64,000 nucleotides of DNA. Origin: a virus. The stretch spans positions 2,747 to 66,746 of IMG/VR virus record IMGVR_UViG_3300031857_000135. One strand, written 5' to 3'. The notes under the pieces are model-generated. The model was not told the origin of the DNA. It saw only the letters and a program-made list of their open reading frames with translations, and searched no databases. Position 1 is the first letter of the stretch, and each line of letters starts with the position of its first letter. Below, one piece after another: positions 25,511 through 50,583 of the stretch. A program made the translations under genes and the position numbers.

Positions 25511-26851
25511 ATGTCACTGCTATCGGAGCTTGAAGCACGGGGCGTCACCGCCGAAGATTTAGAAAAGGCTGCCGCAGTTCGTTTGTTCGAAAAGGCTGCT
25601 GCAGCTGAGGGTGTCGATCTCAACGATCTGGACGAGAGCCGGGTCGAAGAACTGTTCAACCACTTCGTTTCCACTTCCACCGAGAAAGAGGCTTCCGCCA
25701 TGAATGACAAGATTGTAGAGCTCTTCGAGAAGACCGCTTCTGCTGAGGGTATCGACCTGGACGATATGAGCGACGAGGATCTTGCTGCTCTTTACAACCA
25801 TTACATCGAGAACGTTCTTCCTGAGCAGATTGCGGCTGAGGAGGAGCTAGAGAAGGATGCCTCCGACGAGGAGGCCGTTTTTGAGCTCTTCGAGAAGACC
25901 GCTTCTGCCGAGGGCATCGATCTCGATGATATGAGCGACGAGGATCTTGTTGCGCTGTTTAGTGACTATGTAGAGAACGTGCTCCCCCTCCAGCTCGAGG
26001 ACGCGGACAGCATTGAGGACCTGGATAAGGTTGCTGATGCCGACGAGAAGTTGGCTGAAGCCGAGATTCTTGGTCGGCATATGGCTCGCGCCTATGTTGA
26101 TGAAGTAGAGAAGGTCGGTGCCGCGAAAAAGGAGGGCCCATCTCTTCGTGATCGGGCTCAGAGATTTGGCCGCAGCTATATGTCCGCGCTGAAGGGCGAG
26201 GAGTTCCGCGAGGGCAGAAAGACCTACGGCGGTAGGATGGCCCGAGCTGAGCGGCGTCTGGGGCTCGACAAGAGAATGGGCCGTGCGTCCGCCAGCAACG
26301 TCGGAAAATCAAAGATGCTCCGCGGCGGCCTAAAGACCGTGGGCGCGTACGCTATTCCGGCTGCAGTAGTAGCCGGTGGTACGGCTGCTGCGATGCGTAA
26401 GGAAGGAAGTTTCACTGAGGAGGAGGCAGAGGCTCTGCTGCTCATCGACGCTGAGTTTGGTGAGGATGTCGCCGAGGATGTTGCTGAGAAGGTTGCTGCT
26501 GCCAGCCTGAAGAAGCGCGTGCTTTCTCGTGTTTCCAGTGCGCGAGAGAGATTAGCAGACCTCACCTACAAGAAGAAGAAGGGTCTCGCCCGGGCCGGTG
26601 AGCTTCTGAGCGGCAGTCGCCTTGCCCGCATGCGGAAGTACACAGGTCAGAAGAAGGGCGTACTTGCTGCCGCTCGCGGTAGAGGCCCTGACAACCGCGA
26701 GGCGCGTAGAGTGCTTGCAGCGAGAGGTGCTGCTGGTGGTGCAGCCGCACTGGCAGCCGGCGGCGGCGCGTACGCCATGCACAAGAAGGGCTCCGGTGAC
26801 GTTGAGGATCTTGCCATCGAGATGCTTGACTTCGCTGGATACGACGTCTGA
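25511..26851 (+). CDS. Acidic repeat scaffold-like protein with two basic Gly-zipper cargo modules
   Basis: Three LFEK(T/A)A(S/A)AEG(I/V)DL repeats; Arg/Lys-rich segments after EKVGA and EKVAA (ORF track start 25499). Confidence 0.75.
   Translation: MSLLSELEARGVTAEDLEKAAAVRLFEKAAAAEGVDLNDLDESRVEELFNHFVSTSTEKEASAMNDKIVELFEKTASAEGIDLDDMSDEDLAALYNHYIENVLPEQIAAEEELEKDASDEEAVFELFEKTASAEGIDLDDMSDEDLVALFSDYVENVLPLQLEDADSIEDLDKVADADEKLAEAEILGRHMARAYVDEVEKVGAAKKEGPSLRDRAQRFGRSYMSALKGEEFREGRKTYGGRMARAERRLGLDKRMGRASASNVGKSKMLRGGLKTVGAYAIPAAVVAGGTAAAMRKEGSFTEEEAEALLLIDAEFGEDVAEDVAEKVAAASLKKRVLSRVSSARERLADLTYKKKKGLARAGELLSGSRLARMRKYTGQKKGVLAAARGRGPDNREARRVLAARGAAGGAAALAAGGGAYAMHKKGSGDVEDLAIEMLDFAGYDV
25718..25949 (+). 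repeat. Intragenic direct repeat (~67 bp near-identical copies)
   Basis: GAGCTCTTCGAGAAGACCGCTTCTGC...GATATGAGCGACGAGGATCTTG at ~25718 and ~25883. Confidence 0.85.
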
Positions 26852-26857
26852 TGACAC

Positions 26858-26900
26858 ACACGGCGCCATCTTCTGTTCTTGCCGGGAGATGGCGCCGTGT
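26858..26900 (+). promoter_or_regulatory. 14-bp hairpin after the scaffold gene, covering part of the RBS and the GTG of the next gene
   Basis: ACACGGCGCCATCT...AGATGGCGCCGTGT. Confidence 0.6.
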
Positions 26901-27178
26901 TTGATCTCACTTGGATCTTTTTTGTCGATGAGCTGACAAAGATAGCATCTAATAGAGCATCGGATACTCTTCGTGTTCCGGGTACCGCAAATGGCACGCC
27001 CAGAGGACTAGCGAAGCCTGCCCTCGCAAGTGGACAAAATCTCGCAAAGTTTCAAGCAGCCGGACCCTCTAAAGCGCTGGTGACCGGCTCATCTCCGACA
27101 GCACACAATCCCACTTCCACACTCTCGGCAGGAACTACAGGTTTTGTAGGGATGCCGGCACCCCCTCCCGTCGAGTAG
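26897..27178 (+). CDS. Small putative head-internal protein with FFVDELTKIAS leader
   Basis: GTG start after GGGAG; leader shared with ORFs at 40270 and 50020-50583. Confidence 0.6.
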   Translation: MFDLTWIFFVDELTKIASNRASDTLRVPGTANGTPRGLAKPALASGQNLAKFQAAGPSKALVTGSSPTAHNPTSTLSAGTTGFVGMPAPPPVE

Positions 27179-27187
27179 AGGCATACG

Positions 27188-28846
27188 ATGAGCAACTACA
27201 GAAGCATGATCGACCAGGCCCTTGAGGCCGCTCGTGCTCGTGCTCACACTCCCGTTGAGACTGTAAAAGCCGCCTCTGCCGAAGATGCACTCATCAAGGA
27301 GGCAAACGATCTCGCAAACGCACTCGAGTTCGTTTCCCTTAGCGCTTCGGGCGGTGATAACGCTGCTGGGTTTCGACAGGAGATGATCCGCGACTTCTAC
27401 AAGAGCGCCACTAGTCCAGCACAGGGACCTACAGCCGCCTCTGGCGTACAGGGAATTGCTCCCGCTGCGGGTAAGAAAAAGCTCGCCCCTGTTGGACTGG
27501 TAGGAGGCAATAGCCCTGTGCAGGGATCTACTACTCCCGAGGCTCGCGACGGCCAGAAGACTCTCCTTGAGTCGTTTAAGCAGGGCAGTGGTCAGTCCCT
27601 CTACGACATGCTTATGAGCAATAAGACTGCTGGCGCAGGCGGTCCCGCAGAGCACGACTCAGAGACGATGGCCGGCGTCGGTACAGCGAATGAGAACTCA
27701 ACGTACCGCAAGACGCTTCATACAAACGAAGGTCCTGTCAACGCCAACCGCCGTGATCTAAAGAAGAATACGCGCGCTCGGCTTGCGGAGGTCTTTGGAC
27801 ACACCAACGATACCCTTGGGGATGCAACCGCAGCGCAAATCTTCCCACAGGCCGCATCTCGCGGAAACCTCAAGATTGCGTCCGCGTCACGCACGCGGAG
27901 GTTACTTCAGGTAAATAAAGAAGCAGGGATGGAGAAAGAGGCTATCCTAGGTGCTGTGCGTAATCTATTCCGAGGTGGCGCTAACGCAGCCGCCGGCGCA
28001 GCTCCCAAACTTAAGAACTTTAAGAAAGCCCCCAGTGCAGCCCCGAATACACCCCCTTATTATCGCCCAACTCCAGGCCCAACTCCAGGCCCAACTCCAG
28101 GCCCAACTCCCAAGTCGGGTAGGTATCAGAAATACCAAAAAGCTAGACAAGCTGCCGCTGCAGGTCCGTCATTTCGCGAGAGAATACGAAACTTTATTGG
28201 AACACCCGAAGAGGTTGCTAAAAAACGGCAAGCTATAACGGATGATATCGGACGCGTTCGCCAAGTGACCGACCTTGTTACCGACACATTGCCTAACGCG
28301 GTGAGAGGCATCGGTGACGCTGGACAGCGCTTCCTTAATTTCGTCAGAAGAACGCCGCAGCCCGCTGTACAAGAGGGCATGAGTGACACTACCAAGGCTC
28401 TTCTCGGAATTGGAGGAGCCACTGCTGCTGGTGGTCTCGGCTTGATGGCACTCAAGGGGATGTCAAGCGACGGCCGTGAGGCAACAGCGAGTGCGTTTCC
28501 GCTGACTCTCAGCCTTCTTGAAAAACGCGCTGACCAGCTCCACGCGGGTCTTGGTGGACTTGCGTTTGGCCCCCTCGGTGCCGGCGTAGGAGCGGATAAC
28601 GATAGAGGTTTTCGTGCTATGGGCGGCTCTCTGGTCGGTGGTACGGCTGGTGGCATGTTGGGAGCCTTACCCGGCCTGGCCCTAAATGCGCCAGGGGCAG
28701 CCTCTTTAGGCGGCGCTTTAGGTGGAATGCTCGGAAGCGGCCTTGGCGGATATATGGGTCACGGATCTATTTCTGACCGTGAGAAGCTTCTCGTACTAAA
28801 GCAAAAAGCAGAGCTTGAAGCTGCCCGCCAGCGGGGAGAAATCTGA
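27188..28846 (+). CDS. Multi-module head-associated polyprotein-like protein (KxA sites, PTPG repeat, Gly zippers)
   Basis: KAAS, KEAN, KSAT, KTAG, KIAS, KEAG, KEAI, KRAD; GGSLVGGTAGGMLG...GGALGGMLGSGLGG. Confidence 0.75.
   Translation: MSNYRSMIDQALEAARARAHTPVETVKAASAEDALIKEANDLANALEFVSLSASGGDNAAGFRQEMIRDFYKSATSPAQGPTAASGVQGIAPAAGKKKLAPVGLVGGNSPVQGSTTPEARDGQKTLLESFKQGSGQSLYDMLMSNKTAGAGGPAEHDSETMAGVGTANENSTYRKTLHTNEGPVNANRRDLKKNTRARLAEVFGHTNDTLGDATAAQIFPQAASRGNLKIASASRTRRLLQVNKEAGMEKEAILGAVRNLFRGGANAAAGAAPKLKNFKKAPSAAPNTPPYYRPTPGPTPGPTPGPTPKSGRYQKYQKARQAAAAGPSFRERIRNFIGTPEEVAKKRQAITDDIGRVRQVTDLVTDTLPNAVRGIGDAGQRFLNFVRRTPQPAVQEGMSDTTKALLGIGGATAAGGLGLMALKGMSSDGREATASAFPLTLSLLEKRADQLHAGLGGLAFGPLGAGVGADNDRGFRAMGGSLVGGTAGGMLGALPGLALNAPGAASLGGALGGMLGSGLGGYMGHGSISDREKLLVLKQKAELEAARQRGEI
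28067..28110 (+). repeat. 12-bp tandem repeat (CCAACTCCAGGC, three full copies plus a partial) encoding PTPG
   Basis: Read directly from the sequence. Confidence 0.9.
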
Positions 28847-29061
28847 TGAGATCCCACTCACTGGCGGAGTACTCTGTACTCTTTGATGAGATTGATTCAG
28901 GTCGCTTTGGCGATCATGTCAAAGAAGCGCTATATGGAGTTTGCGAAGGCATGGCTTCTTCAGTACAATCGCACTACGAGAAGAAGGCATCGTCTCCAAC
29001 TTCCATGACAGAAGAAGATGCGCGGCAAGCACGCCTGAATCAACTTCTACGAAAGTTCTAA
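28846..29061 (+). CDS. Small hypothetical head-associated protein
   Basis: Coupled ORF with EKKAS. Confidence 0.55.
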   Translation: MRSHSLAEYSVLFDEIDSGRFGDHVKEALYGVCEGMASSVQSHYEKKASSPTSMTEEDARQARLNQLLRKF

Positions 29062-29076
29062 TTGCGAGGACTGCAA

Positions 29077-29442
29077 ATGCTAAAGATCGGAAGTGCAGAA
29101 CTGGCAGTAGTCTCCGCAAGGAGCGCTGCCACCATTCGCTCGCTGACTGAAAAGGTCGCGAGCCTGGAGCAGGAGAACGTCCAGCTCCGCACAAAGCTTG
29201 CCTCGATTGCGCGCGACCACAAGGTTGCTGAGATTGCGCGTGAGATGGAGGACAAGGGTCTGAACGCCCACATGACGTTCGAAGAGAAGATCGCGCACAT
29301 TCGGGGCCATGCGCATCTTGAGAACGTACAAGAGGCGGTCAAGATGGCGAGTGCGGGCAATGTCCGCCTTGCCGATGTTTCGAATCAGCCGGGGTCTTCA
29401 GCCCTGGATGCCCTCACCTCCTTCTGCCTTACTGGCGAATAA
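29077..29442 (+). CDS. Coiled-coil scaffold-like protein
   Basis: GAGGA RBS; EKVAS, TKLAS, HKVAE, VKMAS; directly upstream of the decoration and capsid genes. Confidence 0.7.
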   Translation: MLKIGSAELAVVSARSAATIRSLTEKVASLEQENVQLRTKLASIARDHKVAEIAREMEDKGLNAHMTFEEKIAHIRGHAHLENVQEAVKMASAGNVRLADVSNQPGSSALDALTSFCLTGE

Positions 29443-29454
29443 CTGGAGATCCCT

Positions 29455-30045
29455 ATGGCTGGACAGTTCGTCACGATTCTGAATCCTGGGTACTCGACCC
29501 TCTACACGCGCGATCTTGCTTACCAGGCAAGTGCAAATGTTGAGGGCAGCGCCACTATGAACGTATTCAACCCGGATGCTACCCATCCTCTCCAGGAGGG
29601 TGAGTGGCTGCAGCTGTCGGGTGGTAAGTTCACACGCAGCCTCGCATCTGGCGCAGTTACGGGCTCTGGCTCAGCTTCTGCTCTTGCGATTGTAGATGAT
29701 GCACAGAACGCAGCTGCGTCGCGTCCCTGCTTCATGTACTTCCAGGAGCGGGGCCGCTACGATGCCCAGTTCACCCGGAAGGCACACTGCATCACAGGTC
29801 CTTCAGGATTTGAGTTCCGGACAAAGATGATTGTCTGCGACTCAGGCGATGAGGGTGAGCGGGTGTACGTGTACGTCTGCGAGGATGCCAGCGGGCGCCT
29901 TGTCTCTGCGCTGGTTTCCGTCTCTGTAGCTAATGGGGTTTCTTCGGCTGCAGTTCCCACTACCGGGTCTTGGTACGCCGGTACTATCCTTCAGGTACAC
30001 GGTACCAACGACGCCACCGTGCTGTTCCAGCCCGGTTTCCGCTAA
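29455..30045 (+). CDS. Probable capsid decoration/cement protein
   Basis: 196-aa beta-rich protein immediately before the MCP; GGAGA RBS. Confidence 0.55.
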   Translation: MAGQFVTILNPGYSTLYTRDLAYQASANVEGSATMNVFNPDATHPLQEGEWLQLSGGKFTRSLASGAVTGSGSASALAIVDDAQNAAASRPCFMYFQERGRYDAQFTRKAHCITGPSGFEFRTKMIVCDSGDEGERVYVYVCEDASGRLVSALVSVSVANGVSSAAVPTTGSWYAGTILQVHGTNDATVLFQPGFR

Positions 30046-30075
30046 TCAATCCCACAGTCCCGATAGGAGAACACC

Positions 30076-31209
30076 ATGGATTACTCTGCTGAAATGGTGA
30101 ATTCGGGCTTCATCGAGCGCCTCGAGACTGAGGGACCGACGAAGACCGCTGCCGCCTCACTGAACTACATCAAGGACCGCCTGCGCGAGTCCAGCTTCAC
30201 CGACATGATCGTTCCGAACGAGCGTGTTGTGCGTGGCGACCTCCAGCGCAGCACTGAGCACGACACCCTCGTGAAGATCGTCGATATCGAGCCCGGTAGC
30301 CGGGCGATGTCGATCAACTTCCGCGGGCAGCCCACTGCTCAGTACGTGAATGGCAAGCGGTATGCCATCGGCTTCTACACCATCTCGTCCCTCAAGTTCG
30401 AGATCGTGGAGCAGGAGCTTATGGCCTACGAGATGCCAATCACCCGTATCATTGAGGAGAACAGCCTCAAGGATATGGTTGAGGTGAAGGACCGCGAGTT
30501 CCTGAACCACGTCGAGTCCTGCGTCAATGCGATGCAGGCCGAGGGCAACAGCGGTTCTTCCGCGTTCTCGGTAATCGGCGGTCAGGTCACGATCTCGAAG
30601 ATCAAGGGTGTGCTGGCTCAGCAGTCGGGCGGCAATGCCACTGACTACACGACCTACGCCATCCAGCGTCCCGATATCGTCAACATCAAGAAGCTGCTCA
30701 AGCGGCAGATCACTGTGGGTGGTGAGACCATCCGCGCTGGTCGCCTGCGTCCGGCTCTGATGCTGATGACCGAGACCGATGCGGACGACTTCGATCAGTG
30801 GACCCATGAGGACTACGGTGATCGTCTTCAGAGCGAGACCGCTCTTGATGGCTACACCTACAACAAGGTCCTGGGTCTGCGGATCATCCGCACGATCAAG
30901 AACGACATCCTGCGTGAGGGCAACGTCTACGTCTTCACCTCGCCCGAGTTCTTCGGCCGCAACTACACCCTGAACGATGTGAAGTTCTACATCGACAAGG
31001 TTGCGAACCGGATCTTCTGGCAGGCGTGGATGGACGTCGGCATGGGCTTCGGCAACATCGCTGCGGTGGTGAAGCTCGAGCTCTACCCGGGCGATGCTTC
31101 GAACACGGCTGCCAACAGCTCCGTGATCCCGGTTGAGGAGAGCGACATCGGCGCCCTGAACAACAAGGTTGCCGACGGCCTCACCTTCCCGAGCATCAAC
31201 GTCTTCTGA
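30076..31209 (+). CDS. Major capsid protein
   Basis: 377 aa; strongest GC3 codon bias in the window; AGGAGA RBS; follows protease/scaffold genes and precedes a terminator; N-terminal TKTAA site. Confidence 0.85.
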   Translation: MDYSAEMVNSGFIERLETEGPTKTAAASLNYIKDRLRESSFTDMIVPNERVVRGDLQRSTEHDTLVKIVDIEPGSRAMSINFRGQPTAQYVNGKRYAIGFYTISSLKFEIVEQELMAYEMPITRIIEENSLKDMVEVKDREFLNHVESCVNAMQAEGNSGSSAFSVIGGQVTISKIKGVLAQQSGGNATDYTTYAIQRPDIVNIKKLLKRQITVGGETIRAGRLRPALMLMTETDADDFDQWTHEDYGDRLQSETALDGYTYNKVLGLRIIRTIKNDILREGNVYVFTSPEFFGRNYTLNDVKFYIDKVANRIFWQAWMDVGMGFGNIAAVVKLELYPGDASNTAANSSVIPVEESDIGALNNKVADGLTFPSINVF

Positions 31210-31230
31210 TCGAAGCGTTCGCTGTTCCTA

Positions 31231-31263
31231 AGCCCCGGGCCGAGTTATCGGGCCGGGGCTTTT
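31231..31263 (+). terminator. Rho-independent terminator after the MCP
   Basis: AGCCCCGG...CCGGGGCT stem followed by TTT. Confidence 0.8.
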
Positions 31264-31277
31264 AACTTAAAAAGGAG

Positions 31278-31811
31278 ATGACTGTGAAGATCGTCATCCA
31301 GAACTCTGTTAGAGATCCTTCGACTCGAGAGCGCCGTCGTGAGCATGTGGCGATGGTGACGCCTTCTCCTATGATTGGCGGCGTCCACCTCGCTCCCAGA
31401 AGAAGCCGCAGCGCGGATACCCAACAGCTATCGAATCACGATCTGCAGGTCATTGCAGATATGATCAAGTGTGGAGTACTCAGAGTCTTCCAGGCCTCTC
31501 CGTATGTGGAGCTGTCAGAAGGCTTTTTCCGTCCAGCAGCTCCGCCCGCTGTAGCTGTAGCTCCAGTAGAACCAGAGGTGAAGGCGTCAGAGCCCGAAAG
31601 TGTGGAGCCTGTAGCTGCTCTAGAGCCGGAAGAGCCGGAGGTAGTTGCAGAGCCCGTAGCAGTTGCCGCTGATGACGATGCCCGCAGGGAGGAGCTGATG
31701 TCGCTCAAGAATGCCGAGCTGCGTGAACTTCTAAGCAACGCAGGCGGTGGTAGCGGTACAGGCCTGTCGAAGGCTCAGCTGGTTGACGCCATCCTCGAGA
31801 GGTCGACATGA
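31278..31811 (+). CDS. Hypothetical protein with Pro/Glu linker and C-terminal Rho-N/HeH-like motif
   Basis: LMSLKNAELRELL...GLSKAQLVDAILE. Confidence 0.65.
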   Translation: MTVKIVIQNSVRDPSTRERRREHVAMVTPSPMIGGVHLAPRRSRSADTQQLSNHDLQVIADMIKCGVLRVFQASPYVELSEGFFRPAAPPAVAVAPVEPEVKASEPESVEPVAALEPEEPEVVAEPVAVAADDDARREELMSLKNAELRELLSNAGGGSGTGLSKAQLVDAILERST

Positions 31812-32778: not shown

Positions 32779-32785
32779 GGTATCT

Positions 32786-33307
32786 GTGGAAAATCTATTC
32801 AAGAATCCTCATAGTGAAGTTCCAGACGAGCTCTGGAAGGTAGCCTCGCCATTTGAGAGGCAGATGGCTGCTGTGGAGTACTGGGCTGAGTTACGCGGAG
32901 TTGAAAAGATTGCTGCAAAAAGTACAGTCAAGAAACGTATTATTGATTTTTTAGCAGATAAGAATACACCTGATCTCCTCTCTGCCGGTGCTGGCGCTGG
33001 TATTGGTGCAGGCTTAAACCTGTACTCGACAAAAAAGTTTCCGCAAAGCGAAGAGCTTGAAGTCGAAAAGGGTAAATTCACTAAAGAGCCATCAAGGGAG
33101 CAATTAGATCTTAGGGCGGATCGAGCTTCATTGGATGAGCGTAAGGCACGCGGAAATGCTGGGCCGACAACTGAAAAAATTCAGGATATTAAAGAAAGAT
33201 TAGCTTCTATGAGGGCCGAAAATAGGCTATTAAGCACCCTTCTAATGACAGCAGGCACCGGCGCACTGGGCTACGGCCTTTCCAGGCGCGTACGAGCAAT
33301 GACGTGA
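32786..33307 (+). CDS. Putative head-internal protein with KxA leader and Gly-zipper cargo
   Basis: WKVAS...EKIAA, then SAGAGAGIGAGL and TAGTGALGYGL. Confidence 0.65.
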   Translation: MENLFKNPHSEVPDELWKVASPFERQMAAVEYWAELRGVEKIAAKSTVKKRIIDFLADKNTPDLLSAGAGAGIGAGLNLYSTKKFPQSEELEVEKGKFTKEPSREQLDLRADRASLDERKARGNAGPTTEKIQDIKERLASMRAENRLLSTLLMTAGTGALGYGLSRRVRAMT

Positions 33308-40269: not shown

Positions 40270-40524
40270 ATGAACTCTCTGCTGCTGCAGTTTTTCTCCG
40301 ATGAGCTTGTGAAGCTGGCTGGCGGTGACCCCGCCAGGCAGCGTCAGTACTACATGCGCAATCGGAATAAAATTCTGCAGCAGCAGAAGCAATACCGTAT
40401 AAAAAACAATGCAGTCATCTCGAAGAAGCAGAAAATCTACAAAGCAAAAGTTAAGTCAGGAATGATTCGGCAGCGTCAGCGGATTTCTACCGGCAATTCT
40501 TACACTTATGGTGGATACCGCTAA
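40270..40524 (+). CDS. Small highly basic protein with FFSDELVKLA leader
   Basis: Leader followed by an Arg/Lys/Gln-rich segment. Confidence 0.65.
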   Translation: MNSLLLQFFSDELVKLAGGDPARQRQYYMRNRNKILQQQKQYRIKNNAVISKKQKIYKAKVKSGMIRQRQRISTGNSYTYGGYR

Positions 40525-42748: not shown

Positions 42749-44527
42749 TCACCTTCTCAGGTGCGCTTCTACGATCAATCTAGCCGAGTTTACGACTCCA
42801 GCGGTAATGTCCTTCGGTTCGGCGATGAGTGCGTATTGCCGCTCTCCGAACAGCTTGTCGTACCCAGTCTTATTGTTTCCAATCGCGAGGATGGAGAGCA
42901 CGATCCCCTCACCGCGAATCTCTCGAACGACATTCGATAAGTCCTTCAGACCATCGCCTGTGCTGTTCCTACCTCGGAGAAAGCTGGGGAAACCATCTGT
43001 CATCAGGAGGATGGCGCGAGCAGACTTCTTGTGTTTCGCCCATTCAGAGGCCATATCCAGAGCACCGATCAAGTGGGTGTTACTGTTGTTAACCTGAGAG
43101 GAGTTCAGGCTTCCAATCTTAGTAAATGGATAAATGACATCAGAGAATGCCCACAAGTTCAGGCTTACATTGAGGTCCTTACATGCGTGCGCTACATCAG
43201 CAACCGCCTGGTTTACGGCCTCCAGTGGGAACCCAACCATCGAACCACTGACATCTACAACCAGTAGTAACTCCAGGCCTTTGTGCTCCGTTACCTTCTG
43301 AAAGACGGGGATGGAAGACAGGTTCCCGCTAACTCGAGCCTGAATGGCCCTCTGGATATTCAGCCGAGGGCCAAAGCGTGCGGTTGAGAGCTCTTGTTCC
43401 GCCCGGATCTCATCCAGGTATCTGCGAATTCCTTCCGCAGATCTCGAAGGTTTCTCAGGCGGATGCTCGGGGGTGACCAGTCTTACGATCACCTTGCAAT
43501 CTCTGCCAGCCTGAACCAGGTCCGTCTCTTCCTCGTCTTCCTCGTTCTTCGCCTGTTTGCCGAGTTCTGCCTTGGCCGCGGCAATTCGAGCGTTCATCTT
43601 CTCTGCACCATCTTTGCAGAGTTTGGAGAACGAGGTCTCCCCGTTTTCGTCCGCGTCCTCATCACTAGCAGTGATGAGTCTGCGAATCTTCTGCATGGTC
43701 GCAGCAGTTGGCTGCTTTTTTGGAAGAGACTCTTCCTTCTTACCAAGCCCCTCTGACGGAGGAGTGAACTGCTGGGCCACGTCTTTTAGGGCCTTGAGCA
43801 CCTGCTGAGCCTTCTGCTGCCCGGTCTTTGGTGGCTCAGGAGGTGGTATTTCCTGCAGAATCTGATCCGCAATGTCATCGACGAGGCGCGCCGTGATCGC
43901 CAGGCAGGCATGAGCATCGACAAGCTCGACCTGAGCCCGCGCCCGGTCCATGGCCGGCTTGCAGACTTGAAAATGGTTTGGAGCACCTGCAGTGTCAAAC
44001 CCAGATGCGGCTCTTCCTAAGTACGCGCATAGACTAATCTTGGCTGCCTCTTCTCCTTCGTGCTCAGCGATACCTTTCCAGCGCTCGCCCAGGAGCGTCG
44101 CTCCACCGTAATAGAGCTCTCCCCAGATACTCTTACACCTCAAGTCCTCCAGGATGTTCCACAGCCCGTGGAACATGTCTCCCAGCGGACCAGAGAGTGC
44201 TCTCCCCTCAGTGCTAGTTGAGACGATCCTTGCCCTGGTGAGAAGTCGTTCTACAGCCTTCTCCTTAAACGCGGCCATTAGACGTAGATCTGTCTCTGCG
44301 AAGATGTGCGAAAGCTCGTGTTCACAGATGAGATACGCCTCTGGGTCAGACAGTGGAACTCGGACATAAGTCTCGCAGTCTGTGTGCCCTCCGATTGTGG
44401 TATTTTCTAGCTTTATATTCTTGCTCAACAGGGTATTAAACGTATCAACAAGATTCCGCATTCTCTCGATGTTGATTTCTAGTGATGGTGCCTTCATGGC
44501 ACCGAGGTCAAGAGGAGGACGACTCAT
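42749..44527 (-). CDS. vWA-domain protein with N-terminal HExxH metallopeptidase-like motif (CobT/NorD-like partner)
   Basis: CEHELSH, NILEDLR, MIDAS VDVSGSM...LMTDGFP. Confidence 0.8.
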   Translation of the reverse strand: MSRPPLDLGAMKAPSLEINIERMRNLVDTFNTLLSKNIKLENTTIGGHTDCETYVRVPLSDPEAYLICEHELSHIFAETDLRLMAAFKEKAVERLLTRARIVSTSTEGRALSGPLGDMFHGLWNILEDLRCKSIWGELYYGGATLLGERWKGIAEHEGEEAAKISLCAYLGRAASGFDTAGAPNHFQVCKPAMDRARAQVELVDAHACLAITARLVDDIADQILQEIPPPEPPKTGQQKAQQVLKALKDVAQQFTPPSEGLGKKEESLPKKQPTAATMQKIRRLITASDEDADENGETSFSKLCKDGAEKMNARIAAAKAELGKQAKNEEDEEETDLVQAGRDCKVIVRLVTPEHPPEKPSRSAEGIRRYLDEIRAEQELSTARFGPRLNIQRAIQARVSGNLSSIPVFQKVTEHKGLELLLVVDVSGSMVGFPLEAVNQAVADVAHACKDLNVSLNLWAFSDVIYPFTKIGSLNSSQVNNSNTHLIGALDMASEWAKHKKSARAILLMTDGFPSFLRGRNSTGDGLKDLSNVVREIRGEGIVLSILAIGNNKTGYDKLFGERQYALIAEPKDITAGVVNSARLIVEAHLRR

Positions 44528-44867
44528 TCGAGGCTACCTCATAGATTCGTGTTGCTATGGCCCAAACGGTAGGCTTTCGTCGATAGAGCAAGACATCATA
44601 GGGCCCGAGAGGTGGGGGTTTTTCTCCTGACCGCAGAAATCCCTCTACCTCTTCGTAGATGTGGGCCTGTGCGTCCTGTTTACACTCTTGAACCAGCTTT
44701 TCGGTTCTACGCGAGTGTTCTCCCCTCTTGATTGAGAGCTCTACAAGATCATTTGTCTCCCGCTCCACGGCATCTTCGAGGGCCGACAGCGTAGAGCGAA
44801 GCTCAGCACTTCGCCCCTTCTTCTTCATCCACTCGATCATATGCTCAAAAGACTCAAACATGACCAT
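44508..44867 (-). CDS. Hypothetical protein
   Basis: Coupled between the AAA and vWA genes. Confidence 0.6.
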   Translation of the reverse strand: MVMFESFEHMIEWMKKKGRSAELRSTLSALEDAVERETNDLVELSIKRGEHSRRTEKLVQECKQDAQAHIYEEVEGFLRSGEKPPPLGPYDVLLYRRKPTVWAIATRIYEVASNESSSS

Positions 44868-45711
44868 AGAGTTTTACTCCCGTCAGGTTTACAGAGAAAA
44901 TGGACTGAACTCGAGCCATGATCGCCGTCGCATGATCAGGCTCAAATTTATACATCAACATCTTCAGAGCTTTATCCAGACCGATACGCTTCACCTTGTT
45001 GGCGGTATGGACGAGATCGCGCGTTGACAGCGCGTAGTCCCACTGTGTTGTGCGGCTCTCTTGTGCAAAGGTCAGGAGCCTACTAGCGAACTGGCGCTCC
45101 TGAACCGCCGGAGTTGGGCTGAGCGTCAGTTCGATCAGCTTCTTCTCATCGGCTTCCGGCATGTAGCCTACTTCAATGAAATCGAAGCGGCTTCGAAGTG
45201 CCTCATTGAGCTGGTAGGTTCCTGCGTAGCCAGGATTCATGGTTCCCACTACAAAGAGATCTGCCCCCTGCTTCAGTGAGAACTTTCTCCCGAGAGAAGA
45301 ACATTCCACAGACTTCCGGTAGTCTGCTACCGAGAACACCATGCTCTGAACCTGTGGCCGAAGAGTGTTCACCTCCTCGAGGACCAGCACTGCTGCTCCG
45401 ACTTCATTTGCGGTCTCGATCGCCAGGGGCAGCGATCCGAGGGTGAAGAACACGCTGTCGCCCTCGAGTCCGAAAGAACCGATGAGCTGTACCTCGTCGG
45501 TTCCCACGTTGCAGTTCTCTCGGATCATGGGAATCTCGTTCCTGGCGCACCACTCCTCAACCGAGAGAGTTTTACCGCTACCCTTCGGTCCTTTTAGAAT
45601 GATGGCATCTCCCCAGGCGAGTTTGTCTACGAGGTCTAAGAGTCCGACCTCGATGTAATTAGGATCCTTGGAGGGGATAAGGTCACTAGCCGACATCTTT
45701 ACGATTTTCAT
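44854..45711 (-). CDS. MoxR-family (CbbQ/NirQ/NorQ-like) AAA+ ATPase
   Basis: GPKGSGKT, VLEEVN, TMNPGYAG, LNEALRSRF, STRDL. Confidence 0.88.
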   Translation of the reverse strand: MKIVKMSASDLIPSKDPNYIEVGLLDLVDKLAWGDAIILKGPKGSGKTLSVEEWCARNEIPMIRENCNVGTDEVQLIGSFGLEGDSVFFTLGSLPLAIETANEVGAAVLVLEEVNTLRPQVQSMVFSVADYRKSVECSSLGRKFSLKQGADLFVVGTMNPGYAGTYQLNEALRSRFDFIEVGYMPEADEKKLIELTLSPTPAVQERQFASRLLTFAQESRTTQWDYALSTRDLVHTANKVKRIGLDKALKMLMYKFEPDHATAIMARVQSIFSVNLTGVKLYGHV

Positions 45712-47339: not shown

Positions 47340-47342
47340 ACT

Positions 47343-47373: not shown

Positions 47374-47391
47374 AGCTGTTTCTTATTCTTT

Positions 47392-47763
47392 TTAATTCAC
47401 GCTTCTATACAGTGATCCAATTCCATGTTTAAAGGAACTCCTCAGACGCTCGTATCCAAGACCTCTGTTCTCAAGTGCGGATGCTTTTTGAATACGATTA
47501 CGCATCCCACCCGGACCCGTTAAGGCAGCTTGAGCCTGTTCCCTAAGATCCCCCGAAGCTCTTTCTGCTCGATCCTTAAGTCGCCAAAGTTGATTCTGTG
47601 TTTGATCTTGAGCAGTGGTCCTTAGTGAACTTGATGGGAGTGTGTTGATATTTTTAATTCTATTAGAGATTGCTCTTTCAACAAAATTTGGACTCAGCGC
47701 GGATTTTTCCATCCAAAGTGGATGATCAGAAAGAAGCAGGTCATAAGCAGCGAGTTTGTTCAC
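47392..47763 (-). CDS. Putative head-internal protein with MNKLAAY...HPLW..EKSA leader
   Basis: Leader shared with the ORFs at 11441 and 47826; GGGAG RBS. Confidence 0.7.
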   Translation of the reverse strand: MNKLAAYDLLLSDHPLWMEKSALSPNFVERAISNRIKNINTLPSSSLRTTAQDQTQNQLWRLKDRAERASGDLREQAQAALTGPGGMRNRIQKASALENRGLGYERLRSSFKHGIGSLYRSVN

Positions 47764-47825
47764 TTTGAAACTCCCAATGCTACTGCACTTTTGAGACGTT
47801 AATGATACCTGACTTGAAAAGAACC

Positions 47826-48173
47826 TTACATACCTGGCGGCATCGCTTGATTTTTCAGAAACTGTCCAAAAGGCGTCTGGGACATTCTGTTTAATCCTTG
47901 GTAGGCATCCACCATTCCCTGGCCTACTCGTTTGTTCATGTCATATTTAAATCCCCTTAGTCGTTGTGAGATTGTAGGAGGCCTAGTCATTGGCTTAAGC
48001 GCCGCTGCCTCGAAGGGGGAACGAAATGGTTTGATCATACTCTTAATTCCCGTCCCCACTTGCTGTAAGCCTTGCCCAAATTGCTTAAATCCCAGTATTG
48101 CAACCTTCTCATGGTCTTCCGTCCACAATGGATGCTCTGCTAGGAGCATCTCGTACGCAGCAATCTTATCCAT
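47826..48173 (-). CDS. Putative head-internal protein with MDKIAAY...HPLW...EKVA leader
   Basis: Leader shared with the ORFs at 11441 and 47392; AGGAG RBS. Confidence 0.7.
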   Translation of the reverse strand: MDKIAAYEMLLAEHPLWTEDHEKVAILGFKQFGQGLQQVGTGIKSMIKPFRSPFEAAALKPMTRPPTISQRLRGFKYDMNKRVGQGMVDAYQGLNRMSQTPFGQFLKNQAMPPGM

Positions 48174-48182
48174 ACTGCGCTC

Positions 48183-49145
48183 CTATGCTATAGCGCCTTT
48201 TGAAAAGTCAATCACAATCGACTTGATTGTGACTTCGTAGTGGTTTGCAAGAGTTTGAGTATTAGTAGTCGCCTCTACAGACACCTGCAGATGATCATTG
48301 GTTTCTGCCACATTTGAAGCAACCATACCTGAGCCGAGTGAGAGCGGGGAGTGCGTAAGCGTATCAAATTTTCTAATAGCGCTCATTGCGGGAGGAGCAC
48401 CCCCGCTTAGCACCTGCAGGCATGTTCCTCGAACTATGATATTTCTATTCGTGGCAAGGCCCCCGCCTGTATTAGCTATATGAATTGTTGCCTGGATGTG
48501 GATCTCACTGTTGTTGGAGTCTGGTCCAGCCAAACTCCCAGAACAGAAGGTTGCTCCGGGTAGCCCACCCGAGGGCTTCAGGTTGAAAGCAATCCCGAAA
48601 TTATCTCCAAGCGCAGGAGTACCAATGCGATTGACAATCGCAGCGATGCTGACATGAACTCTAGTGCCCACAGCCATCGGAATCTGCTGAGCAGTGCCGA
48701 CATTGACCGCCCAGGCTCCCTCGAGGCTGATTGCGGTCAGCTCAGACTCGCTGTGGCTCCCGACCATGACAGAGCCGGTAGTGTCACCGCCTCCGCCCAT
48801 GTCGACCACCAGATCTCCTTCGATCGAGACAGCGCCAGTCAGATCAAGTGTCGGCTCTGCCTCTACGGCTGCGACTGGATCTTCTGCTTCAGTCTCTACG
48901 AACAGCGCGTGCCATCTTCCAGCGCTCGAGTTGTAGGTAGGCTCAATGACTGTCTCATCATCGTCCGTCTCTGAGTTCCCATAGACAAAGGAGAACAGAC
49001 GGTTGATGTCCTTCACGAGGATCAGCTGCCCGTCTTCTGTATCTGTAACGGGAAGCAAGCGGAGCGTTGCAATGTCTGCAACAGGATCCTGGAGTAGATC
49101 TCCAGTCACAATTCCACTTCTACGGCGAAAAATTCTGCGGCTCAT
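48183..49145 (-). CDS. Tail fibre/spike-like virion protein
   Basis: N-terminal PVADIATLR...DDDETVIEP...GRW pattern typical of fibre/spike attachment domains; beta-rich C-terminus. Confidence 0.5.
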   Translation of the reverse strand: MSRRIFRRRSGIVTGDLLQDPVADIATLRLLPVTDTEDGQLILVKDINRLFSFVYGNSETDDDETVIEPTYNSSAGRWHALFVETEAEDPVAAVEAEPTLDLTGAVSIEGDLVVDMGGGGDTTGSVMVGSHSESELTAISLEGAWAVNVGTAQQIPMAVGTRVHVSIAAIVNRIGTPALGDNFGIAFNLKPSGGLPGATFCSGSLAGPDSNNSEIHIQATIHIANTGGGLATNRNIIVRGTCLQVLSGGAPPAMSAIRKFDTLTHSPLSLGSGMVASNVAETNDHLQVSVEATTNTQTLANHYEVTIKSIVIDFSKGAIA

Positions 49146-49510
49146 ACCGGCACCACCAAGCCCACCCAGGCGTCAAGAACGGGAGAAGTTCCCGAGACAG
49201 CTGTGACCTGCAAGTATATCTGGCTTAGCCCCTGAACCTCAATGGTTGCTATATCTGAGGCATTTACATTCATAGCCTCTCCCTGATGCCACATCCCGCT
49301 GATGGGTGAGTACCACCAGACCTGAACTGTAAAGACTGGATCGGTGCCCGCTACCTTGAAGAGCAGGTGAATGAACTCATTTCTCTGCAGCGCGATCCCA
49401 TCTCCGATGGAGGACGGAGCTGCTGTGGTAGCCGTGACTCCCGCTAAGATTCTACGGCTATTTGCGGATGTTCCGGAGATTGCTGACCGGACGACGACCT
49501 TCTTGGACAT
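49142..49510 (-). CDS. Hypothetical beta-sandwich virion protein
   Basis: ATG 49510 with GAGG RBS (ORF track start 49531); coupled to the downstream gene. Confidence 0.6.
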   Translation of the reverse strand: MSKKVVVRSAISGTSANSRRILAGVTATTAAPSSIGDGIALQRNEFIHLLFKVAGTDPVFTVQVWWYSPISGMWHQGEAMNVNASDIATIEVQGLSQIYLQVTAVSGTSPVLDAWVGLVVPV

Positions 49511-49728
49511 GTGAACCTCGTTGAACGGCATGACTATAACACCCAGTCATGGCGTTATACGAGTCCTGCCGATGTGGAAGAACTGGAAATATCACTTCCA
49601 GAGGAAGTGACTTCTTCCAGTTCGAAACCTCAGACTCGCGAGTTTACCCCTGAGATTTGACAAGGAAGCCTTGGGGATCTAAGATAACCCTACATCCACG
49701 TTGGGTGGTTTTTCCAAACGGAGTTTTT

Positions 49729-50031
49729 ATGTCCCTTCGACACAGAACCAACGCCGCTGAGACCGTCCTTCTTCTGTCATCACTTCTGCGTACGCAGGTC
49801 GGAGATGACAACAACCCATCCCCGCTACTGCTTCAGCTTATGAAGCAGGGGAAGTCCCCGGAGGAGATCGAGCTGTCGCAAGACATCGCTCTCCTCGCAG
49901 CAGACATCATGGATGCGCTTGGAGAGGCGTCAGCTAAAAATGAGATGAAGAAGGTAGGCCCGAAGATTCTTGGGCTTCTACTCTTCGCTATTCCAGAGCT
50001 TCAAGAAGATATCGATGCGCTAAAACGCTGA
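49729..50031 (+). CDS. Hypothetical helical protein
   Basis: ATG 49729 with GGAG RBS. Confidence 0.55.
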   Translation: MSLRHRTNAAETVLLLSSLLRTQVGDDNNPSPLLLQLMKQGKSPEEIELSQDIALLAADIMDALGEASAKNEMKKVGPKILGLLLFAIPELQEDIDALKR

Positions 50032-50583
50032 CATTGCGTAGTCAACGGCCCTGCTGGCAAGCGGTCCTTGAGGGTCGAGCGGGTTCATTGTCGGCAATGG
50101 ACTCGCTCCTCCCTCAAAGGTAGCTGCATTAGCTACACGCTTTCTAAGACCCATCTTTTGAAGAAGTGCCTTTGCCGCATCCGCCTTGGCAGTCGTAAGT
50201 GCATAGGCAGGACCCATTACCTGAGCCCCTTCATTCATACTTTGAATCGTCGGGGCGGCTCCGGCTGCCATCTCTTGCAGCCTTCCGCCAGCCCGGCCAA
50301 GTGCCTGCATCGTCCGATTCGGGCTCTGCATGGCCTTCAACGCACTACCAGGCGTTAGTACTGCCTCCTTTTCCATCTCATCCCGGAAGAAATACAGAAC
50401 TTCCGGGCTTAGGATCGAGGCTGTCTTTCGCATCTGGGCCTTAGCCTTCGTAATCTTACCATTCTTGGTACGAATTTTTTCTGTTAAAGAGACACCATCG
50501 ACCCGAGCTTCACGATCTAACGATCCGCGGGTCTTTCCATTTACAGAGGACATTGACGAGGAGATAGACTCAGAGCGGTACAT
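50020..50583 (-). CDS. Putative head-internal protein with KTAS and FFRDEMEKEA motifs
   Basis: Motif shared with the ORFs at 26897 and 40270. Confidence 0.65.
   Translation of the reverse strand: MYRSESISSSMSSVNGKTRGSLDREARVDGVSLTEKIRTKNGKITKAKAQMRKTASILSPEVLYFFRDEMEKEAVLTPGSALKAMQSPNRTMQALGRAGGRLQEMAAGAAPTIQSMNEGAQVMGPAYALTTAKADAAKALLQKMGLRKRVANAATFEGGASPLPTMNPLDPQGPLASRAVDYAMSAF

What the first reader, a model, noticed from the sequence alone, without database searches (positions are those of the whole stretch)
25511..50583. Second leader family (F/Y)xDE(L/M/V)xKxA preceding variable basic peptides
Seen: IFFVDELTKIAS (26897), QFFSDELVKLAG (40270), YFFRDEMEKEAV (50020-50583) and AYVDEVEKVGA inside the scaffold-like 25511 protein; EYWAELRGVEKIAA (32786) is a looser match. 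Each is followed by unrelated low-complexity or very basic sequence. Inference: an amphipathic helix that docks cargo onto the prohead core and ends in the cleavage site. Its presence in the scaffold-like protein suggests cargo mimics scaffold.
Basis: partly seen in the sequence, partly recalled or inferred. Interest (0 to 1): 0.75.

Follow-up and report, generated by a model that had tools for sequence, protein, structure and literature searches.

The report
Shared head-loading leader on phage proteins
An uncultured large phage and its relatives begin several unrelated small proteins with the same short helix (aromatic-x-Asp-Glu-hydrophobic-x-Lys-x-Ala), which also ends the best-conserved helix of the scaffold-like protein. 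It is most likely a clip-off address tag for loading proteins into the capsid, as in phage T4, but neither cutting nor loading has been measured.

Summary
The fifth, looser case (gp32753) is not a solid member.

Relatives confirm a portable leader. It sits at the N-terminus of at least 10 unrelated downstream sequences across seven related phage records. Two tandem genes share it nearly base for base from start codon to Lys codon, with unrelated flanks. In the scaffold-like family it ends the most conserved stretch, and conservation stops just after K-x-A, where an AF2 helix also ends.

K-x-A is over-represented in head-module proteins. It marks low-confidence linkers of the protease-like gp23597 and recurs in the head genes of Salmonella phage Arash.

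Best reading (0.55): a T4-CTS-like cleavable propeptide. The helix docks cargo in the prohead and K-x-A is cut by the head protease. Cleavage, packaging and the docking partner are inferred. It is a new variant of a known kind. "Cargo mimics scaffold" has sequence-level support only.

The parts
26897..26947 (+). FF-leader of gp26879 (17 residues from the likely GTG start to the Ala of K-I-A). The whole ORF runs to 27178. The mature part is Pro/Gly/Ala/Thr-rich.
   Evidence: Regex hit at 26921. GGGAGA lies 7 nt before GTG 26897. Orthologs keep the leader in L001, L002, L006 and L008/L009.
40270..40320 (+). FF-leader of gp40270 (M1 to A17). The ORF runs to 40524. The mature part is a very basic 67-residue protein with a conserved C-terminal end.
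   Evidence: (alignment A2).
50362..50427 (-). Internal FF element of gp50020. A conserved K-T-A-S is followed by about 10 residues and then the F-F-x-D-E-M-x-K-x-A motif. It is flanked by a conserved basic N-terminal part of about 55 residues and an Ala/Gly/Met-rich C-terminal part. The ORF is 50020-50583.
   Evidence: Orthologs P0121 and P0122 keep both K-x-A sites and the N-terminal part.
26045..26122 (+). Most conserved element of the scaffold-like protein gp25499 (residues 183-208 of the 450-aa ORF that starts at 25499; orthologs start at the Met of 25511). It ends in Y-x-D-E-V-x-K-x-G/A.
   Evidence: Alignment A4 of 37 homologs. K184, A186, E187, A188, G192, M195 and A196 are invariant, K205 is nearly invariant, and conservation stops after K-x-A. 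AF2 helix 174-208, with block pLDDT 72-85 over residues 181-210.
25499..26851 (+). Scaffold-like protein. The N-terminal half is acidic and helical, with repeats each carrying E-K-x-A. The FF-type motif sits at the junction. The C-terminal half is variable and basic with Gly/Ala-rich hydrophobic stretches. The C-terminal tail is conserved.
23597..25492 (+). Putative prohead (head-maturation) protease with a helical C-terminal extension. Conserved K-x-A sites lie at residues 37-39, 293-295 and 397-399, in low-confidence linkers.
   Evidence: phrog_18299 'head maturation protease' is matched by 23 of 25 family members, best E 8e-07. ESM Atlas lead to Peptidase_S77/S78/S80. Homologous to phage G gp19 and Arash gp222. 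Alignments A1 and A3. AF2 low-pLDDT segments are 1-41, 288-306 and 396-402.
32876..32914 (+). Looser site in gp32753 (aromatic pair, acidic residue, then K-I-A-A). It is a K-x-A site and not a solid FF-leader.
   Evidence: The L016 ortholog keeps K-V-A-A here, with an indel. The leader HMM does not find it.
32825..32845 (+). D-E-L-W-K-V-A in gp32753. It matches the core pattern in this window only.
   Evidence: The L016 ortholog reads D-E-I-W-R-A-V here.
22873..22896 (+). Degenerate leader-like junction (I-L-F-S-E-K-T-A) inside gp21988. By eye, the Gly/Ala-rich tail after it resembles the mature part of a free-standing leader-plus-cargo ORF in relative L009 (9166-9459).
   Evidence: The resemblance was judged by eye and not aligned.
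30142..30150 (+). K23-T-A25 near the N-terminus of the major capsid protein (30076-31209), a candidate maturation site.
   Evidence: The site is identical in L009. Arash MCP has K-E-A at about residue 26.

Best explanation
The motif is a cleavable capsid-targeting propeptide, a functional analogue of the phage T4 CTS. A short amphipathic helix (hydrophobic pair, then aromatic-Phe-x-Asp-Glu-hydrophobic-x-Lys-x-Ala) is placed at the N-terminus of 3 to 7 (usually 4 or more) otherwise unrelated proteins per genome in the relatives that have it. These are mostly small, basic or Gly/Ala-rich proteins, and one is an enzyme.

Inferred step 1: the helix docks the protein inside the assembling prohead. 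It uses the same site as the identical motif that closes the conserved helix of the acidic scaffold-like protein.

Inferred step 2: after shell completion, the head-maturation protease (the N-domain of gp23597) cuts at or just after Lys-x-Ala. This is the site it also uses in itself, in the scaffold-like protein, in the MCP N-terminus and in other head-module proteins. The cut releases the leader and leaves the mature cargo in the head.

Shown here: the motif's non-random occurrence, its conservation, its modular reuse (including a DNA-level cassette duplication), its position at conservation and helix boundaries, and the restriction of K-x-A to head-module proteins.
For: (1) Enrichment. The strict motif occurs 4 times against 0.03-0.04 expected. 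Whole-contig scans gave 16 hits against 0 for the reversed control, and only 2 hits in 865 kb of distant cultured phages.

(2) Modularity. The 17-column leader alignment A6 holds 19 leaders, with E12 and K15 invariant and F9 and D11 in at least 90% of rows. The downstream sequences are unrelated. In L019 two tandem ORFs share the leader while their mature parts are unrelated. At DNA level the 45 nt from start codon to Lys codon differ at 3 synonymous positions, and the flanks are unrelated. One leader precedes an InPase (PF18823, E 2.6e-26) plus HNH_3 protein.

(3) The two parts are separable. The L006 ortholog has 6 residues inserted between FFxDEL and K-E-A. The G004 ortholog of gp40270 keeps E-K-V-A and the mature part but not FFxDE.

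(4) Scaffold link. In 37 homologs the stretch ending in the motif is the best conserved, and conservation ends after K-x-A. An AF2 helix spans 174-208. There are lineage-specific parallels: in G004 both the scaffold motif and a cargo leader lack D-E, and in G005 Gly-Phe precedes the motif in the scaffold and in all 3 cargo leaders.

(5) K-x-A as the processing site. K[TIVLE]A[SAG] occurs 38 times against 8.2 expected, and EK.A 27 against 7.0, while the A.K and R.A controls are flat. Of 35 E-K-x-A DNA matches, 23 lie in 22261-34197 and 3 in 47699-50373. In the gp23597 family K37 and A39 are near-invariant in 87 sequences and A295 is invariant in 25. These sites fall in AF2 segments with pLDDT under 50. 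The same motif fills the Arash head genes and the Arash MCP N-terminus.

(6) A protease is present: phrog_18299 is matched by 23 of 25 family members, there is an ESM lead to S77/S78/S80, and the phage G homolog gp19 is called a head maturation protease (passages of 10.1101/2024.12.16.628780).
Against: There are no proteomic or biochemical data: cleavage, packaging and the receptor are all inferred.

The protease assignment is weak. Pfam gave nothing, there was no PDB sequence relative and no fold match.

gp40270 and its tandem relatives lie directly after the tail-tube gene, not in the head module.

In gp50020 and in the scaffold-like protein the motif is internal, so it is not simply an N-terminal signal.

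The L001 ortholog ends in K-L-S-S, without Ala.

Only 3-7 proteins per genome carry the leader, while many more carry K-x-A. Most putatively processed proteins therefore do without it.

Co-variation with the scaffold motif is imperfect. The G006 scaffold keeps Y-V-D-E, while its 6 translated cargo leaders read A-F followed by a variable residue, then Ser (or Arg or Glu), then Glu, with no Asp.

E, K and A are helix formers, so part of the E-K-x-A excess could reflect helical low-complexity composition.
Confidence: 0.55

Rival explanations
1. The leader is a pro-region without an address function. It would be an extended protease-recognition element, or an intramolecular mask that keeps basic or Gly/Ala-rich (possibly membrane- or DNA-active) products inert or soluble until the head protease removes it. 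Loading into the head would depend on other parts of the proteins.
For: Many mature parts are strongly basic or carry Gly/Ala-rich hydrophobic stretches (by eye), while the leader is acidic. The leader always ends in K-x-A. Most proteins with K-x-A sites lack the FF helix, so incorporation does not generally need it.
Against: Generic K-x-A sites lack FFxDE, so the helix does not appear to be needed for recognition. The same helix closes the most conserved stretch of the scaffold-like protein, which suggests a shared binding partner more than masking. One bearer is a 400-aa InPase+HNH protein, not a small basic peptide.
Confidence: 0.22
2. The helix is a permanent docking or anchoring element that is not cleaved. 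It would tether proteins to a virion component such as the portal, the inner shell or the tail-tube lumen. K-x-A would then be part of a binding motif and not a cleavage site.
For: gp40270-type genes sit beside tail-tube genes. No cleavage has been shown. The motif occurs internally in gp50020 and in the scaffold-like protein.
Against: Conservation stops exactly after K-x-A in the scaffold-like family. The K-x-A sites of the protease family lie in predicted flexible linkers between domains. K-x-A also occurs near the MCP N-terminus. This pattern is typical of maturation sites in T4 and SPN3US (passages of PMC10052503).
Confidence: 0.1
3. It is a double-glycine-type export leader of bacteriocin-like peptides encoded by the phage.
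For: gp40270 reads hydrophobic-x-x-E-L-x-K-L-A-G-G, and several downstream parts are Gly/Ala-rich and cationic. The resemblance to double-glycine leaders is recalled, not tested.
Against: Gly-Gly follows the motif in only 3 of the 7 gp40270-family rows and in none of the other families. No Peptidase_C39 was found in the record, though the record is estimated 36% complete. The motif is shared with the scaffold-like protein, and K-x-A is shared with the MCP and the protease.
Confidence: 0.02
4. It is a compositional or chance artefact of helical Glu/Lys/Ala-rich proteins.
For: The regex was chosen post hoc, and E, K, A and L are common in helices.
Against: (reversed control 0). Position-specific conservation in orthologs. 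DNA-level cassette identity.
Confidence: 0.02

Closest known systems
Phage T4 capsid targeting sequence (CTS) of internal proteins IPII/IPIII, removed by prohead protease gp21 (Mullaney & Black 1996, as cited in passages of PMC9958956, PMC9024508 and PMC10052503)
   Same: It is a short N-terminal tag on head-internal proteins that ends at the head protease's site. The tag is portable to other proteins, and cargo loads with the scaffolding core.
   Different: The sequence is different, and so is the putative cutting rule: Lys-x-Ala here, against Leu/Ile-x-Glu in T4 (the T4 rule is recalled). Per the passage read in PMC9958956, the T4 CTS is about 10 aa and is conserved only in IPII and IPIII. 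Here one consensus is shared by many unrelated proteins and also by the scaffold-like protein itself. Function here is inferred only.
Propeptides of giant Salmonella phage SPN3US (and phiKZ-like phages) cut by gp245 at A-x-E (PMC10052503, passages read)
   Same: Proteolysis of head proteins is extensive. There are short (20- and 24-residue) and long (111-254-residue) N-terminal propeptides, long propeptides are cut at several motif copies, and the protease processes itself. Both phages encode a multisubunit RNA polymerase.
   Different: The motif differs (K-x-A against A-x-E). The passages read report no shared leader consensus for SPN3US. The protease family differs at sequence level (only weak PHROG and ESM leads here).
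P1 DarB N-terminal packaging signal (PMC9024508, passages read)
   Same: An N-terminal segment of at most 30 residues is sufficient to load a reporter into the capsid.
   Different: No consensus among Dar proteins was found there. Here the consensus is explicit and ends in a putative cleavage site.
Encapsulin cargo-loading peptides and the C-terminal tails of HK97-type proteases that bind the shell interior (recalled, not tested)
   Same: Short peptides address cargo to the inside of an HK97-fold shell.
   Different: Those are usually C-terminal and are not cleaved. The receptor here is unknown.
   Same: The same K-x-A motif is read as the head-protease site, in the same wider phage group.
   Different: As far as its summary shows, that note concerns K-x-A itself. 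The FF helix upstream, its cassette-like reuse and its presence in the scaffold-like protein are the subject here.

Membership tests
T4-type cleavable capsid-targeting propeptide (CTS) | The same short N-terminal peptide on several otherwise unrelated proteins of one phage | tested here: met
   A6 holds 19 leaders. The downstream parts are unrelated. Each genome that has the leader has 3-7 HMM hits; G004 has none.
T4-type cleavable capsid-targeting propeptide (CTS) | The tag ends at the consensus site of the phage's own prohead protease | tested here: inconclusive
   Every leader ends in K-x-A, K-x-G or K-x-S. K-x-A is enriched in and confined to head-module proteins and lies in linkers. No cleavage data exist.
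T4-type cleavable capsid-targeting propeptide (CTS) | The bearers are packaged inside the head | not testable with these tools
   There is no virion proteome for this clade. Gene context is mixed: head module, next to the tail tube, and elsewhere.
T4-type cleavable capsid-targeting propeptide (CTS) | The tag is sufficient to load a foreign protein | not testable with these tools
   This needs an experiment.
T4-type cleavable capsid-targeting propeptide (CTS) | Sequence similarity to the T4 CTS | not tested
   No T4 sequence was fetched. By recall the sequences differ, so the claim is analogy and not homology.
Prohead (head-maturation) serine protease, for the gp23597 N-domain | Match to a curated protease family model | tested here: inconclusive
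   phrog_18299 is matched by 23 of 25 members, best E 8e-07, and by the window protein at 0.0019. Pfam gave 0 families at E<=0.05 and PF03420 gave no match. ESM Atlas gave a lead of 0.91 to S77/S78/S80.
Prohead (head-maturation) serine protease, for the gp23597 N-domain | Protease fold | tested here: inconclusive
   The whole-protein AF2 model has mean pLDDT 69. Foldseek gave no match at E<=0.001. VIA-align gave rows only for the helical stretch 301-396, with Z at most 6.8. The N-domain was not folded alone.
Prohead (head-maturation) serine protease, for the gp23597 N-domain | Invariant His and Ser candidates | tested here: inconclusive
   H137, H138, S194 and G196 are invariant in 87 sequences. 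Their catalytic role was not tested.
Prohead (head-maturation) serine protease, for the gp23597 N-domain | Gene placed upstream of the scaffold and MCP genes in the head module | tested here: met
   The window order is gp23597, then the scaffold-like gene, then the MCP further on. The order is the same in Arash and in phage G, where the portal is gp14, the homolog is gp19 and the MCP is gp27.
Double-glycine export leader | Gly-Gly immediately before the cleavage point, conserved | tested here: not met
   GG follows K-L-A in 3 of the 7 gp40270-family rows and in no other family.
Double-glycine export leader | A cognate C39 peptidase-ABC exporter | tested here: not met
   PF03412 gave no match in the record. 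The record is estimated 36% complete.

The most novel reading that the evidence does not exclude
The leader is a recombining 'address cassette' that works by scaffold mimicry. Cargo proteins would carry a copy of the one helix through which the scaffold-like protein binds its receptor in the prohead. Any gene that acquires the roughly 50-nt cassette, from start codon to K-x-A, would then be co-assembled with the core and released by the Lys-x-Ala protease. This would give a sequence-readable rule for the packaged proteome of a whole uncultured phage clade. It would also name a concrete candidate for the long-unknown receptor logic of capsid targeting sequences.
Probability: 0.3. Interest if true: 0.7.

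Novelty: new variant of a known kind. Interest (0 to 1): 0.55.

Why it matters
How internal proteins are addressed to the scaffolding core is still called mysterious even for T4 (passage of PMC9958956). For P1 no consensus signal could be found (PMC9024508).

Here the signal has an explicit consensus. It is reused in front of many unrelated proteins, it is exchanged as a DNA cassette, and it is also present at the end of the most conserved helix of the scaffold-like protein. That points to one shared binding site, which can be looked for directly.

If confirmed, it would let the packaged (and probably injected) proteome of this uncultured clade be read from sequence. It would add a new head-protease specificity (Lys-x-Ala). 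It would also offer a second, unrelated tag-and-clip system for loading proteins into capsids.

Tried and rejected
(1) Complex prediction with the protease N-domain (residues 40-296, alignment A3) and gp40270 residues 1-45 (alignment A2) returned no verdict. The score was 0.23 against the mark of 0.32, and the controls were not run. It is not used as evidence either way.

(2) The fold of gp23597 was not identified. Foldseek against the PDB gave no match at E<=0.001. VIA-align wide gave only helical-bundle rows for residues 301-396. A PDB sequence profile gave only chance-level rows.

(3) Pfam and PHROGs gave nothing useful for the leader-bearing proteins.

(4) The MEME-like de novo motif search and a logo of all K-x-A contexts were not done, because the script machine was lost (confirmed). 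I used regex and shuffle results obtained before the loss, DNA-pattern scans with shuffles, reversed-pattern controls and an HMM instead. Lists of K-x-A contexts quoted were read by eye.

(5) gp32753 as a family member was rejected.

(6) The double-glycine leader reading was rejected.

(7) Literature. Searches turned up no paper describing a Lys-x-Ala head-protease motif or this leader. The Arash paper has 0 occurrences of 'protease' or 'cleav'. Supplements were closed and could hold peptide-level data for Arash or phage G. These few searches do not prove absence from print.

(8) Earlier notes of this scan: none for this genome by place, and none by sequence of the scaffold-like protein.

Full report
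CONTEXT. The window is bases 2747-66746 of a single 66,746-bp virus record. CheckV estimates the record to be 36% complete. It is a very divergent tailed phage.

The following genes could be assigned:
- Large terminase, 19030-20754 (phrog_675, E 2e-56).
- A 631-aa protein, 23597-25492, with a weak head-maturation-protease hit.
- A weakly recognisable major capsid protein, 30076-31209. Its best tblastn hit is 25% identity to Vibrio phages D69, D148 and D181.
- Tail sheath, 35342-39064.
- A 2125-aa fused multisubunit RNA-polymerase-like protein, 5056-11433.

Relatives are uncultured IMG/VR contigs of up to 164.6 kb. The protein collection holds contigs of up to about 199 kb.

THE OBSERVATION. 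The regex [FYW].[DE]E[LMVI].K.[AG] hits the six-frame translation four times. Against per-protein shuffles of 76 ORFs this is 4 observed and 0.03 expected, with 0 of 1000 shuffles reaching 4. As a degenerate DNA pattern it is 4 against 0.04, with 0 of 100 shuffles reaching 4. Without the aromatic position there are 7 DNA-level hits against 0.36 expected. Six of these are in frame, in gp25499 (two), gp26879, gp32753, gp40270 and gp50020, and one is antisense.

The regex was fitted to these instances, so the real test is elsewhere. In 25 related loci a looser pattern gave 33 hits in 21 loci, all on the sense strand of orthologous genes. One hit is a chance match inside the protease gene. Several loci share contigs and are not independent. 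In five whole related contigs (705 kb) the strict pattern gave 16 hits, against 0 for the reversed-pattern control. In three cultured distant phages (Arash, D69 and phage G, 865 kb in all) it gave 2 hits.

I translated seven of the 16 hits. Six are N-terminal leaders in front of new, unrelated sequences, and one lies at a C-terminus and is probably chance. The other nine coincide with sites already seen in the loci. I matched them by contig coordinates or by the printed codons, and one of them, G002 133121(-), was never translated.

A 17-column HMM built from 19 leaders (A6) finds the following:
- 4 sites in the own record at E<=10.
- 5, 7, 4, 0 and 3 sites in G001 to G005 at E<=1.
- 7 weaker sites in G006. 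I translated six of them, and all six are N-terminal leaders of a local flavour in which Ala-Phe replaces Phe-Phe and there is no Asp.

ANATOMY OF THE LEADER. Alignment A6 shows E12 and K15 invariant, F9 and D11 present in at least 90% of rows, a hydrophobic residue at position 13, and Ala at position 17 (Gly once, Ser once). A hydrophobic residue usually lies three positions before the Phe. Plotted by hand on a 100-degree helical wheel, the residues three and four positions before the Phe, the conserved Phe, the hydrophobic residue after Asp-Glu, the residue between Lys and Ala, and the Ala itself fall on one face. Asp and Lys fall on the other face. This wheel is my own inference from the sequence.

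In gp26879 a GGGAGA box lies 7 nt before GTG 26897, which makes the leader 17 residues long. In gp40270 the leader is M1-A17.

In gp50020 the motif is not N-terminal. Orthologs conserve a basic N-terminal part of about 55 residues, then K-T-A-S, then about ten residues, then the motif. If both K-x-A sites are cut, the FF helix would be released as a free peptide.

MODULARITY. The gp40270 family keeps both the leader and the basic mature part (A2). In L019/L020 a second ORF stands just upstream with the same leader and an unrelated body. At DNA level the two copies differ at 3 synonymous positions over the 45 nt from the start codon to the Lys codon. They are unrelated on either side of that stretch. 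This is a cassette whose borders are the start codon and K-x-A.

In L009 a free-standing ORF (9166-9459) consists of a leader plus a Gly/Ala-rich basic body. By eye, that body resembles the C-terminal tail of window gp21988, where only a degenerate junction (ILFSEKTA) remains.

The two halves of the leader can be separated:
- The L006 ortholog of gp26879 has six residues inserted between FFxDEL and K-E-A.
- The L001 ortholog ends in K-L-S-S.
- The G004 ortholog of gp40270 keeps the mature part and E-K-V-A but has no FFxDE.

In G005, one bearer is a 400-aa protein with InPase (PF18823, E 2.6e-26) and HNH_3 domains and further internal K-T-A sites. By recall, not checked here, InPase was described among 'polyvalent proteins' thought to be delivered with phage or plasmid DNA.

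THE SCAFFOLD-LIKE PROTEIN. gp25499 has 113 homologs at E<=1e-5. I aligned 37 of them (A4). The invariant residues are E22 and A24; K78 and A80; K184, A186, E187, A188, G192, M195 and A196; and G410. K205 is nearly invariant.

The best-conserved stretch is the roughly 25 residues that end in aromatic-x-D/N-E/Q-x-x-K-x-A. Conservation stops right after K-x-A. What follows is a basic region with Gly/Ala-rich stretches that is hypervariable in length and sequence, and then a short conserved C-terminal tail.

AF2 with A4 gives an all-helical model with mean pLDDT 70.6. One helix spans residues 174-208 and ends just after K205-V-G-A208. Block pLDDT is 74, 85 and 72 over residues 181-210.

The acidic N-terminal half carries E-K-x-A in every repeat. 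This resembles core proteins that are chopped into small peptides.

The protein can therefore be read in two ways. It may be a scaffold whose key helix is copied by cargo. Or it may itself be cargo with a long, multiply cleavable acidic propeptide, of which the small proteins retain only the last helix. The data do not separate these readings.

Lineage-specific parallels are suggestive but imperfect. There are three lineages, with no tree-aware test:
- G004: the scaffold motif is shortened and lacks D-E, and its gp40270 ortholog also lacks FFxDE.
- G005: the scaffold has Gly-Phe before the motif, as do all three of its cargo leaders.
- G006: the scaffold is canonical (Y-V-D-E), while the six cargo leaders I translated have no Asp at that position and carry Ser, Arg or Glu instead.

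K-x-A AND THE PROTEASE. K[TIVLE]A[SAG] occurs 38 times against 8.2 expected, EK.A 27 against 7.0, and K.A 129 against 99.7. The controls A.K and R.A are flat.

At DNA level E-K-x-A gives 35 matches against 13.1 expected. Of these, 23 lie in 22261-34197, 3 in 47699-50373, 6 before 21 kb and 3 after 51 kb, counting any frame. The RNA-polymerase, gyrase and other non-structural genes are thus essentially free of the motif.

gp23597 belongs to a family of at least 231 proteins, none of which carries a functional name. In 87 aligned members K37 and A39 are nearly invariant, and H137, H138, S194 and G196 are invariant. In 25 members A295 is invariant.

The three sites K37-T-A, K293-I-A and K397-T-A fall in the AF2 segments with pLDDT under 50, namely 1-41, 288-306 and 396-402. 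They therefore lie in linkers between folded parts, as expected for autoprocessing sites.

Evidence that the N-domain is the head protease:
- phrog_18299 is matched by 23 of 25 members, best E 8e-07.
- An ESM Atlas feature lead points to Peptidase_S77/S78/S80 clusters, with a score of 0.91; 8 of the 10 best hits share a family or clan.
- Homology to phage G gp19, Arash gp222 and a D69 protein. A preprint calls the phage G protein a head maturation protease (passages read).
- The gene order is conserved.

Against this assignment, Pfam, PDB sequence and fold searches gave nothing.

The head genes of Arash are also full of K-x-A-[SAG], including its MCP at about residue 26. The Arash paper does not mention a protease or cleavage. 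It is an unchecked AI note and not independent evidence. I checked the Arash part myself.

MECHANISM. I commit to a T4-CTS-like mechanism at 0.55.

Shown: the leader's existence, its conservation, its modular reuse, its position at conservation and helix borders, and the restriction of K-x-A to head-module proteins.

Inferred: (a) the helix docks the protein in the prohead through the site also used by the scaffold-like helix; (b) the gp23597 protease cuts at K-x-A; (c) the mature parts stay in the head and may be ejected.

The separability of FFxDEL from K-x-A, together with the many K-x-A sites that lack FFxDEL, argues that the helix has a job other than cleavage recognition.

The main rival (0.22) is a pro-region that only masks or solubilises basic or Gly/Ala-rich products. 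A permanent, uncleaved docking helix (0.10) is kept alive by the location of gp40270-type genes next to the tail tube. An export-leader reading and a chance artefact are each at about 0.02.

COMPARISON AND NOVELTY. The closest systems are these:
- The SPN3US propeptides cut at A-x-E, which include short ones of 20 and 24 residues and multiply cut long ones (PMC10052503, passages).
- The P1 DarB N-terminal signal, for which no consensus among Dar proteins was found (PMC9024508, passages).

This is the same kind of device with a different tag and a different putative cutting rule. Two features are unusual. The same motif closes the scaffold-like protein's most conserved helix. And a leader cassette is duplicated at DNA level.

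Other notes of this scan describe CTS-like leader sets in several uncultured phages. The kind is therefore recurrent, and I rate this as a new variant of a known kind. My few literature searches found no description of this leader or of a Lys-x-Ala head-protease motif. Supplements were closed.

LIMITS. The script machine was lost, so no MEME, logo or tree-aware co-variation test could be run. Several context lists were read by eye. The complex prediction gave no verdict. The record is a fragment, so more bearers may lie outside it.

Noticed in passing
window 5056-11433 (+): A single 2125-aa ORF matches several phage 'RNA polymerase beta subunit' PHROGs along its length, plus phrog_25354 (E 2e-117) and phrog_24349 (E 6e-92). 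It looks like a fused beta/beta'-type multisubunit RNA polymerase. In Arash the RNAP subunits are the most abundant virion MS signals (PMC10585845, passage).
   Followed up: no
window 21988-34493 and 47392-50583: K-[TIVLE]-A-[SAG] occurs 38 times against 8.2 expected. It is concentrated in head-module proteins and recurs in the head genes of Salmonella phage Arash.
   Followed up: partly
window 47392-47763 (-) and 47826-48173 (-): Two small paralogs start with M-[ND]-K-[LI]-A-A-Y-[DE]-[LM]-L-L..H-P-L-W and have a second E-K-x-A about 20-25 residues later. This is another leader-like N-terminal family with two K-x-A sites.
   Followed up: no
homologs of window 23597-25492 (P0056, P0081, P0085, P0088, P0094, P0109, P0115, P0116): Some family members are about 1010-1030 aa long and carry precomputed intein or homing-endonuclease domains (PF14890, PF13403, PF14528). 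Inteins therefore appear to interrupt the protease-like gene in some relatives.
   Followed up: no
L006 9706-10338 (+): In one relative, an ORF between the scaffold-like gene and the gp26879 ortholog contains a J-domain-like stretch with H-P-D (seen by eye). It was not scanned against any family library.
   Followed up: no
window 22900-23049, 26300-26400, 32990-33060, 34200-34300 and 42380-42440; relatives L032, L029, L037: By eye, many putative cargo bodies carry Gly/Ala-rich hydrophobic stretches flanked by basic residues, looking like glycine zippers. They might be membrane-active ejection proteins. This was not tested.
   Followed up: no
L039 1477-2676 (+) (record G005): A 400-aa protein carries the leader, an InPase domain (PF18823, E 2.6e-26), internal K-T-A sites and a C-terminal HNH_3 domain. 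It is an enzyme-type candidate cargo.
   Followed up: partly
L022 4365-5219 (+) (record G006): Three small ORFs in tandem shortly after the tail-tube gene each start with the local leader variant and continue with different bodies. This is a leader-plus-swappable-cargo array.
   Followed up: partly
window 42749-45711 (-): By eye, a 592-aa protein with a C-terminal vWA-like part lies near a 285-aa AAA (MoxR/CobS-like) ATPase. No family scan was run.
   Followed up: no
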